From a virus: a stretch of 64,000 nt of DNA. Every line of letters starts with the position of its first letter. The stretch's first letter is position 1. This document shows positions 45,512 through 48,618 of this stretch, one piece after another. Below the pieces are notes generated by a model, which saw only the letters and a program-made list of their open reading frames with translations, did not search any database and was not told where the DNA came from. The stretch lies in IMG/VR virus record IMGVR_UViG_3300037258_000375, positions 41,299-105,298 of that record. The stretch is one strand, 5' to 3'. Made by a program: the position numbers and the translations under genes.

Positions 45512-45648
45512 TGGGCTGTAGTCGATCTGCTTGTGTTGCTAAGCGCTCTACCACTGAGCTAATCCCGCATAAAATTATGGGGCGGGATGAAGGATTCGAA
45601 CCTCCGACCTCTGCCTTGGAAGGGCATGTAAGCAAATCAGTCAGCCCA
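45512..45648 (-). ncRNA. Y-RNA-like unit 5, YrlA-type (T-acceptor-D order) from tRNA-Gly halves
   Basis: Y stem enclosing CUUCCAA arm, T arm, AUCCCGC-CCCA-spacer-GCGGGAU, D arm. Confidence 0.85.
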
Positions 45649-45744: not shown

Positions 45745-45861
45745 TCCGCTGTAGTCGTCTGGCAACCCCTTGCGGGGACACGGTCGGATTTGAACCGACT
45801 GCTTTTCATCCAAATTGAAATGTGGGACCAACCCACACATGTAAGCCAAACAGTCAGCGGA
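45745..45861 (-). ncRNA. Y-RNA-like unit 7 with degenerate tRNA body
   Basis: Y stem enclosing D-like arm, AUUUGGA loop arm, GUCGG-UUCAAAU-CCGAC, GCAA hairpin. Confidence 0.82.
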
Positions 45862-45881: not shown

Positions 45882-45910
45882 ACCTTACCACAACCCTGTC
45901 ATGCGCGCAA
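45882..45910 (-). promoter_or_regulatory. promoter of Y-RNA/HNH/Ro60 operon
   Basis: TTGCGC-17 bp-(TGG)TAAGGT with upstream A-tract; same TTGCGCGCAT as promoter at 48911. Confidence 0.65.
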
Positions 45911-46564
45911 TTTCTTTTTCTGCGCCGATCTATGGAGGGGCCGGAGGGAGTCGAACCCACGACCTGTTGATTCGTAGTCAACCGCTCTATCCGTCTGAGC
46001 TACGGCCCCGTGGTCGGGACTGTGGGATTCGAACCCACGACCACCTGTTCCCAAAACAGGAGCGCTACCTGACCGCGCCCAGTCCCGATACTCTAAGTCT
46101 TGGTCGGGGAGAGGGGATTCGAACCCCTGCATAGCCGAGCTACCTGCCCTTTGGTACGCGCCCAAGGATTCGAACCTCGGACCTCCGTCAGACTGCAACG
46201 GCGCTCTGACCACTGAGCTAGGCGCGTATGAAACATTCTTCTCACTCCACAGTTTATAGTTCTGCAAGACCGCGCGCTGTTCCTCATCGAGGGGCACGGT
46301 CACGACCGCTGTGAGACCAAGGTCATTGTCCGGCTCATAGAAAGCGGACGCATCGATGTGATGCAGCTTGAGCTTGGCAATGACTCTTTCGAGAGCTTTT
46401 TTGTTGGGGACGCCGATCAACACGAGGGACGGAACAAGATCATCCACACTCTGTGAAAGTGTGTAGGCCATCTCAAATGTCGCATGATTGGTCTGAATGA
46501 TCTGCTGCGCCAAGGTCAGGTCTTGGCGGACGAACAAGAAGTAGTATGGATTCCCCTAATGCAT
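45899..46564 (-). CDS. peptidyl-tRNA hydrolase 2-like protein with in-frame UAG at codon 3; ORF runs through downstream tRNAs
   Basis: YFLFVRQDL...QQIIQ..HA, LVL..V, F.EPD...GLTAV...P, L..Y.LW. Confidence 0.75.
45933..46009 (-). tRNA. tRNA-Arg(ACG)
   Basis: loop CUACGAA; CCA. Confidence 0.92.
46011..46087 (-). tRNA. tRNA-Pro(UGG)
   Basis: loop UUUGGGA; CCA. Confidence 0.92.
46101..46149 (-). pseudogene. internally deleted tRNA remnant (T arm plus CCA)
   Basis: AGGGG-UUCGAAU-CCCCU, CUCCCCG-A-CCA; no anticodon arm. Confidence 0.6.
46152..46227 (-). tRNA. tRNA-like RNA with non-canonical anticodon loop
   Basis: intact acceptor/D/T arms and CCA; loop GCAGUCU lacks U33 and purine 37. Confidence 0.7.
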
Positions 46565-46570
46565 GTGAGT

Positions 46571-46599
46571 ATCTTTCACCTGTTCTAAAATTTTGTCAA
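46571..46599 (-). promoter_or_regulatory. promoter for leaderless pth-like mRNA
   Basis: TTGACA-17 bp-AAAGAT, six nt before ATG 46564. Confidence 0.7.
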
Positions 46600-46859
46600 G
46601 GGGAATTTTCTAAACACGCCCTCATGAATCACATCTAGCTGGTAGCAAGTGATACCTATTTGTCTCGCTTTCACTTTCATGATGAGGGTTCGGCTGTTGG
46701 AATCCCATTCTCCGACATCGATGCCGATGACGTACTTACTTGGAGGCGGGAGCGTGACCATGCCCGCACTCACCGGTTCCAATGCCGCGACAGCAGCCAA
46801 GGGCGCGAGAGCTTTCGCGCCAGCAAGACCAGCTATCGATCTGAGAAAGCCGCGCCGAT

Positions 46860-47099
46860 TCACGACGACATCCCAATTCCTACTCTCACATCGGGCAGTT
46901 TGCGCAAATTCTCAGCAGCATTCACGGCCTGCGCAGCGTCCTCGTAGCGGAAGACAAGATCACGGGTATAAGTGCCCGAGAGCATACAGCCGGAGTCACA
47001 CTTCACTGGGCCATCAGGCACGTAACCGGCAGCTACGAAGATCGCTTCATCGGTCGCACTCTTGATGCCGCCGTCGTACTCGACAATTACGTTGTGCAT
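46860..47099 (-). CDS. small hypothetical protein
   Basis: GGGAG RBS. Confidence 0.55.
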   Translation of the reverse strand: MHNVIVEYDGGIKSATDEAIFVAAGYVPDGPVKCDSGCMLSGTYTRDLVFRYEDAAQAVNAAENLRKLPDVRVGIGMSS

Positions 47100-47473: not shown

Positions 47474-47689
47474 AAAAATCAGGCAGAACCAGTATATCCC
47501 GAACCTGCACTTGTAATCACAACGGAAGCAATCCGGCCATTCGCATTGAGGGTTACCTCGGTCCCAACCCGGCGAGCCTCCCAGGCACGAGCCGATCTCA
47601 GAAAGATATTCCGGATCAGAGCCGCTTTCCGCCGCCTCTGAATCCGCGCCAAGACCTTCTTGCGCTTGTGCTTCTTTTTGCGATTCTCG

Positions 47690-48050
47690 GGCATAAAAAT
47701 CGAGGCCGGGTATTGCTTTGCATGGAACCCGGCGAACCACGGATAGCTGTTTTTAGGCAGCCATCGGCAACGCATTATCCTCAGCGTTTATTGGTCTGCA
47801 TCCCTTTTGCGGGCGGTAGCAGGGTTCCCGGCACGAAGCTGGAGTTCATTGATCTCGTCGAAACCTTGACGCCCCCACCAAGAAACACTGATTGAGAAAT
47901 GTCTAGCCTGTCCACGAAGCTTTTTGACCAGCTTCGCCCTCGTAGCGCCGGAATCGAACCGACGACGCAATTAGTGCTTCTTGGTGGAGGCGGCGGGAGT
48001 CGAACCCGCGTCCGAAATCAACTTCCTTCAGTGTTGACGTGCGTAACTCA
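47690..48050 (-). ncRNA. ssrA: circularly permuted (two-piece) tmRNA, tag (A)AEDNALPMAA*
   Basis: acceptor piece ending GGUUCGACUCCCGCCGCCUCCACCA (47982) precedes 5' piece GGGGGCG..UUCGAC (47876); G3-U pair; tag at 47785-47753; outer ends approximate. Confidence 0.88.
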
Positions 48051-48075
48051 AATACTGCTCTCCTTTTCTTGAAAA

Positions 48076-48618
48076 TCATTGGACTTGAATATACACCGTC
48101 TTGTCTTCTGACGGGACGATTAAAAAGCTCCGGTCTGGTAAATCCGGAATCCCATGGATCAATCGCTGTCGTAGGGATTCGTGATGTACCCCATAATTCT
48201 TAGCTACCGACCGCATGGACTCACCAGACCTGATCCGCTCTCTCGCGATAGCAAGCTGGTCTTCTGAAAATCTCCTGGTCACCTCGCGTCTTCTGCGCCC
48301 ACGCGCCGGGTCATACGAGGTAATCGCTTTATCTATCTGCGATTGGCGACGAATCGACATCAATGGCCTGAGCAACTGCATCATCTGCAATATCCTCAAG
48401 CCGCCAATGTTGACAACCCAGGAATCTTTCCACTGAGGCTTACGCTTTTTCTTTCGAACTTTGTGATACTTCGCGTTTAACAACCTTGCGATTCGCGCGA
48501 TCACATCTTCATCTGTCATATTGCATGATATGCGTGGGCAATTTGGCTTAGAAGGAGGGCTACATAGAAATGACCCCTCCCCTTCAAGAATGCCAGCAAG
48601 CCAATGAAGATCATGCAT
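48076..48618 (-). CDS. LAGLIDADG-family homing endonuclease
   Basis: WLAGILEGEGSF, MTDEDVI; C-terminal HTH. Confidence 0.85.
   Translation of the reverse strand: MHDLHWLAGILEGEGSFLCSPPSKPNCPRISCNMTDEDVIARIARLLNAKYHKVRKKKRKPQWKDSWVVNIGGLRILQMMQLLRPLMSIRRQSQIDKAITSYDPARGRRRREVTRRFSEDQLAIARERIRSGESMRSVAKNYGVHHESLRQRLIHGIPDLPDRSFLIVPSEDKTVYIQVQ

What the first reader, a model, noticed from the sequence alone, without database searches (positions are those of the whole stretch)
46500..46599. Pth2-like gene gated by a leaderless AUG-CAU-UAG minigene
Seen: TTGACA-17-AAAGAT, 6 nt, then ATG CAT TAG GGG AAT CCA TAC TAC TTC TTG TTC GTC CGC. The amber is in frame with the hydrolase, whose first strand (YYFLFVRQDL) begins before any alternative start, and there is no well-spaced SD. 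Established: two-codon minigenes (lambda bar type) cause peptidyl-tRNA drop-off, and prfB uses an internal stop as a release-factor sensor. Inference: the hydrolase is made only by UAG read-through when termination is impaired, a feedback sensor that complements the tRNA attenuators.
Basis: partly seen in the sequence, partly recalled or inferred. Interest (0 to 1): 0.8.

Follow-up and report, generated by a model that had tools for sequence, protein, structure and literature searches.

The report
Amber-gated leaderless phage Pth2-like gene
A small phage gene for a tRNA-hydrolase-like enzyme keeps a UAG stop as its third codon, as do dozens of distant phage relatives that mostly carry a UAG-reading tRNA just downstream. 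The enzyme therefore seems to be made only when the stop is overridden, but this phage shows no such tRNA.

Summary
On the minus strand, TTGACA-17-AAAGAT-6 precedes ATG CAT TAG (46564-46556). The TAG is in frame with a 109-codon domain whose first strand starts before the only nearby start, TTG 46537.

The domain has a Pth2/Bit1 fold (AF2 pLDDT 93; Foldseek TM 0.73-0.78).

The early stop is not an error:
- About 60 homologous loci, in cultured jumbo phages, IMG/VR contigs and soil metagenomes, nearly all keep ATG, 1-9 codons, then an in-frame TAG.
- In 26 of 31 TAG-gated IMG/VR contigs a tRNA(CUA) lies downstream on the same strand.
- The two loci gated by TGA carry tRNA(UCA) instead.
- Ungated relatives have neither tRNA.

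So the family is gated by a phage suppressor tRNA rather than by release-factor shortage.

The leaderless reading is supported for this clade. Eight of ten loci examined (the window and nine relatives) keep the -35 box 29-30 nt before the ATG and have no Shine-Dalgarno.

The twist here is that the window's 105-kb contig and a collinear 122-kb relative have no CUA tRNA. Yet the gene is under purifying selection (dN/dS about 0.14).

This scan has already reported the same module on other genomes. I found no published description.

The parts
46594..46599 (-). -35 box TTGACA
   Evidence: Read. A TTGACA (TTGCAA in L118) lies 29-30 nt before the ATG in 8 of the 10 clade loci examined; L124 has TTGACG 33 nt upstream and L119 has no such layout.
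46571..46576 (-). -10-like hexamer AAAGAT, 6 nt before the ATG
   Evidence: Read. Relatives have NANNAT-type hexamers (CACTAT, AAGTAT, CAATAT, TATAGT, AAACAT) 6-7 nt before the ATG and no Shine-Dalgarno. The match to consensus is weak and the scanner did not call it.
46556..46564 (-). ATG CAT TAG: start codon, His codon and the in-frame amber gate (TAG 46558-46556)
   Evidence: ATG CAY TAG is present in L113-L118. ATG NNN TAG is present in most of about 60 homologous loci.
46228..46555 (-). Pth2-like domain frame (109 codons, GNPYYFLFVRQDL... to ...QNYKLWSEKNVS), with no stop codon of its own
   Evidence: AF2 pLDDT 93.1. Foldseek top hits are Bit1 and archaeal Pth2, TM 0.73-0.78. Profile against a PDB peptidyl-tRNA hydrolase gives E 4.8e-5. 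dN/dS is 0.08-0.19 against relatives. There are 898 related clusters.
46535..46537 (-). TTG, the only canonical start codon near the N-terminus; it lies inside strand 1
   Evidence: It is not conserved in G002/L024, L113, L117 or L118.
46152..46227 (-). tRNA-like gene abutting the frame, called 'Thr(AGU)' by ARAGORN, with anticodon loop GCAGUCU (C33, C37)
   Evidence: ARAGORN and Rfam tRNA at 52.1 bits. It is identical in G002. L118 has the same anticodon arm with compensatory changes elsewhere. It occupies the place that tRNA(CUA) holds in many other loci.
46101..46150 (-). Mini tRNA-like element (acceptor, D-like and T arm, CCA end, no anticodon arm)
   Evidence: Read from the sequence. Similar elements follow the odd tRNA in L118 and G002. 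It was not modelled.
45899..46227 (-). Continuation of the open frame through the odd tRNA, the mini tRNA-like element, tRNA-Pro (46011-46087) and tRNA-Arg (45933-46009), to the TGA at 45899-45901
   Evidence: The same lack of a stop before the abutting tRNA is seen in every clade member with a called abutting tRNA and in roughly 15 of 33 loci family-wide.

Best explanation
This is a leaderless, amber-gated gene for a Pth2-like enzyme (fold of peptidyl-/aminoacyl-tRNA hydrolases).

Proposed mechanism:
- Transcription starts at or next to the A of ATG 46564. This is inferred.
- A ribosome reads AUG-CAU and meets UAG.
- Only if that UAG is decoded as an amino acid is the 109-residue domain made.

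The gene belongs to a widespread phage module. In it, an early in-frame stop is paired with a tRNA carrying the matching anticodon: usually UAG with CUA at codon 3-4, rarely UGA with UCA. The tRNA lies downstream on the same strand. Enzyme output would therefore follow suppressor-tRNA activity. A plausible purpose (inferred) is to match the hydrolase supply to the load of aberrant peptidyl-tRNA or stalled ribosomes that read-through creates.

In this phage lineage the matching tRNA(CUA) is not on the available DNA, so the decoder of UAG here is unknown.

Shown: the gate, its conservation, the fold, and the association and covariation with suppressor tRNAs.
Inferred: read-through itself, the transcription start, and the enzyme's substrate.
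For: 1. Anatomy of the locus.

2. Conservation of the start, 1-9 codons and an in-frame TAG:
- 9 of the 10 loci from the GenBank phage hits and the first IMG/VR search, including Arash, ME3, CBB, RsoM2USA, fHe-Yen9-04 and RAS14.
- 31 of 35 IMG/VR contigs.
- All 10 new metagenome loci.
- 2 of 4 MAG contigs.

3. One homolog, P0113, has Lys exactly where its near relatives L035/L036 have TAG, so leader and domain form one reading frame.

4. Suppressor tRNAs:
- tRNA(CUA) is present in CBB, fHe-Yen9-04, RsoM2USA and G001.
- It is present in ME3 and Arash.
- It lies downstream on the same strand in 24 of 31 TAG-gated contigs by ARAGORN, plus 2 found by eye.

5. Covariation:
- The two TGA-gated loci, L029/G006 and L064/G032, have tRNA(UCA) and no CUA tRNA.
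- L029 sits inside the window's own leaderless clade.

6. Ungated members have no suppressor tRNA: L092, L102, L127, L129 and RaK2.

7. L118 is 73% identical to the window's protein. It has the same ATG CAT TAG, the same odd tRNA, and then tRNA(CUA) 220 nt on.

8. Purifying selection: dN/dS is 0.14 for window against G002.

9. The rest of the genome uses TAG as an ordinary stop (26 of 129 genes), and no other gated gene was found.
Against: - No tRNA(CUA) was found in the window's 105-kb contig by ARAGORN, by Rfam tRNA at a loose threshold, or by my own stem-loop scan.
- None was found in the collinear relative G002 (121.7 kb, CheckV 100%, 36 tRNAs).
- The defining partner of the module is therefore missing here, although the TAG has been kept in both genomes.
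- Nothing is experimental. Read-through, the inserted residue, the transcription start and the enzyme activity are all unproven.
- ARAGORN missed four CUA tRNAs elsewhere, so absence calls are imperfect.
- Many loci are related, so the counts are not independent events.
Confidence: 0.6

Rival explanations
1. There is no dedicated suppressor. The very short leaderless AUG-CAU-UAG terminates poorly. Host or phage near-cognate tRNAs read UAG at a rate set by RF1 activity, or by peptidyl-tRNA drop-off. The hydrolase would then be a sensor of termination or recycling stress.
For: - No CUA tRNA was found in G000 or G002.
- Yet the TAG and the frame are kept, with dN/dS 0.14.
- The leaderless two-codon layout is conserved in the clade.
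- That two-codon minigenes cause drop-off and that prfB senses RF2 are established knowledge. I did not test either here.
Against: - Sister loci with the same leaderless layout do carry the matching suppressor: L115-L118 have CUA, and L029 has UCA with a TGA gate. That switch of stop codon together with anticodon is hard to explain by RF1 sensing.
- Elsewhere in the family the leaders are up to about 10 codons long and have strong Shine-Dalgarno sites.
- There is no evidence that basal read-through would give useful amounts of enzyme.
Confidence: 0.2
2. Termination followed by re-initiation. The minigene is translated and terminated, and the same ribosome restarts nearby, at TTG 46537 or at the codon after TAG. 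The TAG would then be a coupling device and not a gate.
For: - In a few relatives an ATG or GTG directly follows the TAG (L049, L059, L062, L065, L115).
- The codon after the stop is mostly ATH or GTN.
- The window has a TTG six codons on.
Against: - No restart codon is conserved. Examples are GGG in the window and L114, ATC in G002, GTA or GTC in L117 and L118, and AAY in Arash and CBB.
- TTG 46537 lies inside strand 1 and is absent in relatives.
- Residues directly after the TAG are conserved in the clade (GNP/VNP).
- This model does not explain the covariation with suppressor anticodons.
Confidence: 0.1
3. The gene is a relic or an artefact in this lineage. Either the suppressor was lost and the gene is now silent and decaying, or the TAG is an assembly error.
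For: - The suppressor is absent in G000 and G002.
- The only reads available come from the probable source sample.
Against: - The frame is intact and the conserved R10, D12, Q21, H24, P75-D76 and T86 are all present.
- dN/dS is 0.08-0.19, with saturated synonymous change between the window and G002.
- TAG is kept in both despite different flanking codons (ATG CAT TAG GGG against ATG ACG TAG ATC).
- A re-assembly agrees with the window sequence.
Confidence: 0.05

Closest known systems
Pth2 / Bit1 peptidyl-tRNA hydrolases (archaeal-eukaryotic type), already noted in jumbo phages by Iyer et al. 2021 (PMC7824862)
   Same: - Same alpha/beta fold (Foldseek TM 0.73-0.78 to 1q7s, 3erj, 2zv3, 1xty).
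- Same N-terminal R-x-D-L ... Q-x-x-H-A motif in profile alignments.
- Sits among tRNA and RNA-repair genes.
   Different: - Too divergent for Pfam PTH2 (no hit).
- Only 13-20% identity to solved structures.
- The cited paper does not mention an early stop codon or a link to suppressor tRNAs.
Stop-codon-recoded phages with their own suppressor tRNAs (code 15, TAG read as Gln; crAss-like, Lak and others)
   Same: A phage-encoded tRNA(CUA) lets in-frame TAG codons in phage genes be translated.
   Different: - Here TAG remains an ordinary stop: 20% of genes end in it.
- Only one gene carries a single early TAG.
- So this is a one-gene gate, not a change of code.
- This particular phage shows no CUA tRNA.
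prfB (RF2) autoregulation through an in-frame UGA
   Same: An early in-frame stop makes the output of a translation-related gene depend on how well that stop is read.
   Different: - prfB needs a +1 frameshift and senses its own product.
- Here the frame is continuous, the product is a hydrolase and not RF1, and the partner that covaries with the stop is a tRNA.
Lambda bar-type two-codon minigenes
   Same: An AUG-NNN-stop unit of the size known to provoke peptidyl-tRNA drop-off, here placed next to a peptidyl-tRNA hydrolase-like gene.
   Different: - bar minigenes are free-standing and toxic when Pth is limiting.
- Here the unit is always in frame with the downstream domain.
- Leaders can be up to about 10 codons long.
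- One homolog has a sense codon at the stop position.
Suppressor tRNAs of standard-code phages with no known target (XacN1, PMC5852040; Summit, PMC9022506; RsoM2USA, PMC8504454)
   Same: Same kind of phages. RsoM2USA itself carries the gated gene and a tRNA(CUA).
   Different: - The XacN1 authors and the Summit abstract report that no target genes were identified; the RsoM2USA authors name none.
- The gated Pth2-like gene is a candidate target that gene callers truncate or skip.

Membership tests
Pth2 (PF01981) peptidyl-tRNA hydrolase family | Pth2 alpha/beta fold | tested here: met
   AF2 model pLDDT 93.1. The top 13 Foldseek PDB hits are Bit1 and archaeal Pth2, at E 5e-6 to 3e-4 and TM 0.67-0.78.
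Pth2 (PF01981) peptidyl-tRNA hydrolase family | Sequence match above Pfam's gathering score | tested here: not met
   No Pfam family at E up to 1. PHROG 3668 'hydrolase' scores only 2.3e-4. A family profile reaches a PDB 'peptidyl-tRNA hydrolase' (24bt_A) at E 4.8e-5 and 2zv3 at E 0.58. It is best called Pth2-like.
Pth2 (PF01981) peptidyl-tRNA hydrolase family | Hydrolysis of peptidyl-tRNA | not testable with these tools
   This needs an enzyme assay.
Suppressor-tRNA-gated Pth2-like module (recurrent in this scan; no publication found) | Early in-frame stop after a real start, with no conserved alternative start | tested here: met
Suppressor-tRNA-gated Pth2-like module (recurrent in this scan; no publication found) | tRNA with the matching anticodon on the same strand nearby | tested here: not met
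   None in the 105-kb contig or in the collinear G002. It is present in sister loci L115-L118 and L029.
Suppressor-tRNA-gated Pth2-like module (recurrent in this scan; no publication found) | Standard code elsewhere in the genome | tested here: met
   Genes pack well under table 11. TAG ends 26 of 129 genes.
Leaderless mRNA | Promoter placed so that transcription starts at the AUG, with no Shine-Dalgarno | tested here: met
   In 8 of the 10 clade loci examined the -35 box lies 29-30 nt before the ATG and a -10-like hexamer 6-7 nt before it; L124 is spaced differently and L119 has no such layout. None of the loci with an ATG start has a Shine-Dalgarno. The -10 is weak in the window itself.
Leaderless mRNA | Mapped 5' end at the start codon | not testable with these tools
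   No RNA run was listed.
Lambda bar-type minigene | Free-standing two-codon ORF whose effect is peptidyl-tRNA drop-off | tested here: not met
   The unit is always in frame with the domain. Leaders of 5-10 codons exist. One homolog has a sense codon at the stop position.
prfB-type autoregulation | Stop read by the gene's own product, with a +1 frameshift site | tested here: not met
   The frame is continuous. The product has a Pth2-like fold, not that of a release factor.
Recoded (code 15) phage | Many in-frame TAG codons in phage genes | tested here: not met
   Reading TAG as Gln does not rescue genes. Only this gene is gated.

The most novel reading that the evidence does not exclude
The gene and the tRNAs behind it form one self-limiting circuit.

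- The frame has no stop of its own and runs straight into the abutting tRNA.
- A ribosome that passes the UAG would therefore plough through the tRNA precursor and block its folding and processing.
- Alternatively, it would end on an RNase P-cut, stop-less message and be handed to the phage's own tmRNA.

Read-through would thus feed back on the maturation of the downstream tRNAs, including the suppressor where one is present, and on the lifetime of the hydrolase. The result would be a homeostat for stop-codon suppression.

In the suppressor-less lineage of this window, the same device would instead report read-through that comes from the host.
Probability: 0.15. Interest if true: 0.85.

Novelty: new variant of a known kind. 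Interest (0 to 1): 0.68.

Why it matters
Suppressor tRNAs are common in large phages that keep the standard genetic code. Two genome papers report that no target gene could be identified (XacN1, Summit) and a third names none (RsoM2USA).

A small, conserved gene whose early stop codon matches the neighbouring suppressor's anticodon gives those tRNAs a concrete target. It also suggests a natural tRNA-operated translational switch. Several carriers are cultured phages (GAP32, CBB, ME3, Arash, RsoM2USA, fHe-Yen9-04), so the idea can be tested directly.

The finding also exposes a systematic annotation error. Gene callers truncate or skip this gene.

This window adds a leaderless version without a resident suppressor. 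That version can separate gating by a dedicated tRNA from gating by termination efficiency.

Tried and rejected
- **Amber recoding of the whole phage:** rejected. ORFs pack well under table 11, and TAG is 20% of stops.
- **Other gated genes in the contig:** none convincing among 52 ATG-(0-3 codons)-stop-ORF candidates.
- **The odd tRNA as the amber reader:** I found no register of its loop GCAGUCU that pairs with UAG. Sister loci replace that arm with a GCAA-capped stem, a 9-nt loop or a UUU loop, and L118 has both the odd tRNA and a CUA tRNA. It is therefore probably not the decoder, though this is not excluded.
- **Amino-acid identity of the suppressors:** similarity to co-resident tRNAs gave no consistent nearest isoacceptor.
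- **Stop completion by A-tailing after RNase P cleavage (U + AA):** U at position -1 is frequent (6 of 8 phase-1 junctions) but not universal. It is also the usual RNase P preference, so I dropped the idea.
- **Broad alignment A1:** too diverse for the search for related loci, so A2 and A3 were used instead.
- **The look-up of encoding contigs:** The DNA behind P0003 (74% identical, apparently a normal Met start) could not be inspected.
- **RNA evidence:** no RNA holder was listed.
- **Small-share DNA runs:** they held only tRNA parts, or a relative's gene end plus the odd tRNA.
- **Promoter scanner:** it lists no site here.
- **Megablast of the region against GenBank phages:** only a 45-nt tRNA match.

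Full report
**What is there.** The feature lies on the minus strand.
- TTGACA at 46599-46594, then a 17-nt spacer.
- AAAGAT at 46576-46571, then 6 nt.
- ATG 46564-46562, CAT, and TAG 46558-46556.
- Then an open frame: GNPYYF-L(TTG 46537)-FVRQDL and onward.

The window is part of a 105-kb phage contig with 30 tRNA genes and a permuted tmRNA. Its genes pack normally under the standard code. TAG ends 26 of 129 long ORFs, so TAG is an ordinary stop here. A Logan re-assembly of the probable source run matches the stretch exactly.

**What the protein is.** Pfam gives nothing and PHROGs gives only a weak 'hydrolase' match.
- An exhaustive search finds 898 related clusters.
- An AlphaFold model built on 53 of them is confident (pLDDT 93.1). 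Strand 1 spans residues 4-10, so it starts before the TTG.
- Foldseek places the model with Bit1/PTH2 and archaeal Pth2, TM 0.73-0.78.
- A family profile aligns its R-x-D-L ... Q-x-x-H-A opening with that of Pth2 chains.

I call it Pth2-like. The fold criterion is met, Pfam membership is not, and activity is untested. PTH2 genes in jumbo phages were noted by Iyer et al. (PMC7824862), without any mention of a stop codon or a suppressor.

**The early stop is a conserved, programmed feature.** tblastn hits in cultured jumbo phages start upstream of the annotated genes, or lie where no gene is annotated at all. Reading the DNA gives the following.

| Phage or locus | Opening |
|---|---|
| Arash | ATG CTG TAG |
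| ME3 | ATG ACT TAG |
| CBB | ATG GCA CAA TAG |
| RsoM2USA | ATG TTG TAG |
| fHe-Yen9-04 | ATG TCT CAC TAG |
| 595-kb metagenomic phage | ATG ACT CAC TAG |
| RAS14 (283-codon fusion protein) | ATG AAG TAG |

- Each opening is in frame with the domain, and most follow a good Shine-Dalgarno.
- Of 35 distinct IMG/VR contigs, 31 have TAG as the stop just before the domain, 2 have TGA, and 2 have TAA and are ungated.
- All 10 new soil metagenome loci are TAG-gated, as are 2 of 4 MAG contigs.
- Some leaders are longer, for example MRKAIVGDL-stop and MKLQLEGL-stop.
- One homolog (P0113) has Lys exactly where its near relatives have TAG.
- No restart codon is conserved after the stop.

This rules out a sequencing error, a sense codon in most homologs, and a TTG start.

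**What reads the stop in the family.** tRNAs with anticodon CUA are present in several genomes.
- CBB, fHe-Yen9-04, RsoM2USA and the 360-kb contig G001 all have one.
- ME3 has one 450 nt upstream, and Arash has one about 1 kb downstream.
- Within 10 kb of the gene, 24 of 31 TAG-gated IMG/VR contigs have a tRNA(CUA) downstream on the same strand.
- Two more contigs have such tRNAs that ARAGORN missed.
- In a dozen loci the tRNA abuts the gene.
- The two TGA-gated loci have tRNA(UCA) instead and no CUA.
- Ungated members, RaK2 among them, have neither.

This covariation is the strongest argument that a dedicated suppressor tRNA opens the gate, rather than failing termination. The XacN1 authors and the Summit abstract report that no target for those phages' suppressor tRNAs was identified, and the RsoM2USA authors name none.

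**The window's own clade.** Relatives at 63-80% protein identity are G002/G003, L029 and L113-L118.
- None of them has a Shine-Dalgarno.
- Eight of the ten loci examined keep TTGACA (TTGCAA in L118) 29-30 nt before the ATG.
- They keep a NANNAT hexamer 6-7 nt before the ATG.
- L124 (TTGACG, 33 nt upstream) and L119 depart from this layout.

The layout is gene, then an odd tRNA, then a mini tRNA-like element, then tRNA(CUA).
- The CUA tRNA lies 165-494 nt on in L115-L118.
- In L029 the gate is ATG CAT TGA and the next normal tRNA is UCA.

The window and G002 stop short of this: no CUA tRNA follows.
- ARAGORN, Rfam at a loose threshold and a stem-loop scan find none in the contig.
- None is found in G002 (121.7 kb, CheckV 100%, 36 tRNAs).
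- The two genomes are collinear and circularly permuted. Each covers the other's missing part, and neither part has tRNAs.

Yet the window and G002 both keep ATG-NNN-TAG with different flanking codons. The domain shows dN/dS 0.14 with saturated synonymous sites. The gene is evidently still used, and I could not identify its UAG decoder in this lineage.

**Mechanism and rivals.**
- *Best reading (0.6):* a programmed amber gate of the suppressor-gated family, with the decoder here unknown.
It remains possible for this lineage only. The stop-anticodon switch within the same leaderless clade argues against it as the ancestral logic.
- *Termination and re-initiation (0.1):* it lacks a conserved restart codon and would truncate strand 1.
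- *Relic or artefact (0.05):* purifying selection contradicts it.

**A second conserved oddity.** The frame has no stop before the abutting tRNA.
- In the window it stays open through four tRNA or tRNA-like genes to 45899.
- The same holds for every clade member with a called abutting tRNA and for roughly 15 of 33 loci family-wide.

Processing at the tRNA 5' end would leave a stop-less message. The phage carries its own tmRNA 1.5 kb away. This suggests feedback between read-through, tRNA maturation and the fate of the product. That is speculation, and I give it as the novel case.

**Relation to earlier work.** This scan has already reported amber-gated Pth2-like genes with tRNA(CUA) on other genomes. 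I reached the association independently before looking. Those notes agree with mine but are not independent evidence.

**Verdict.** It is a new variant of known kinds (programmed stop read-through, phage suppressor tRNAs), apparently unpublished and testable in cultured phages. This window is an unusual case that is leaderless, lacks a suppressor and lacks its own stop codon.

Noticed in passing
window 46152-46227 (-): The tRNA abutting the gene has a non-canonical anticodon loop, GCAGUCU (C33 and C37; ARAGORN calls it 'Thr AGU'). It is 100% identical in G002, although the neighbouring gene is only 78% identical. L118 keeps the same anticodon arm, with compensatory changes in the acceptor and T stems. 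In sister loci that arm is an 8-bp stem capped by a GCAA tetraloop (L115-L117), a 9-nt loop (L029) or a normal UUU loop (L113). It may be a non-decoding tRNA-like RNA.
   Followed up: partly
window 45899-46227 (-): The Pth2-like frame has no stop before the tRNA and stays open for 109 more codons, through the tRNA and tRNA-like genes. The same absence of a stop recurs in roughly 15 of 33 related loci, often with tRNA(CUA) starting 0-12 nt after the last conserved residue.
   Followed up: partly
window 46101-46150 (-): A mini tRNA-like element with acceptor stem, D-like arm, T arm (GGTTCGAATCC) and CCA end, but no anticodon arm. Similar elements follow the odd tRNA in L118 and G002.
   Followed up: no
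window 47662-48093 (-): A phage-encoded circularly permuted tmRNA (Rfam RF04321, 101 bits) with tag peptide AEDNALPMAA. It lies 1.5 kb from a gene that would yield a stop-less message.
   Followed up: no
window 45540-45613 and 45778-45842 (-): Weak YrlA (29 bits against a gathering score of 69) and sub-threshold tRNA matches, inside the array that other first-reader notes call Y-RNA-like units.
   Followed up: no
window 46585-46863 (-): The ORF just upstream of the promoter starts MNRRGFLRSIAGLAGAKALAPLAAVAALEP. This looks like a twin-arginine signal peptide, judged from the translation only.
   Followed up: no
L085, L089 (IMG/VR contigs G018, G022): Each has two CUA-anticodon tRNAs with unusual T loops, and one has a long variable arm. 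ARAGORN missed all four. Many neighbouring phage tRNAs have 6- or 8-nt anticodon loops (ARAGORN 'anticodons' tc, aa, ca, gcaa, ttta, ctag).
   Followed up: partly
L001 (Salmonella phage Arash, OQ632216.1 49176-49247): This tRNA is annotated as tRNA-Phe, but ARAGORN reads the anticodon as CUA. The Pth2-like gene is annotated only from an internal Met. In CBB it is truncated, and in RsoM2USA, fHe-Yen9-04 and several Erwinia and Serratia phages it is not annotated at all.
   Followed up: partly
L009 (Stenotrophomonas phage RAS14, locus 943-1803): Here the domain is the C-terminal part of a 283-codon frame. That frame also opens with a Shine-Dalgarno followed by ATG AAG TAG. The annotated CDS starts 22 codons after the TAG.
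   Followed up: no
run X2 (permafrost metagenome), laid on window 46170-46315: A 2955-nt contig at word depth about 496 carries a relative of the gene's 3' end plus the odd tRNA (21 differences in 146 nt). A related phage was therefore very abundant in that sample.
   Followed up: no
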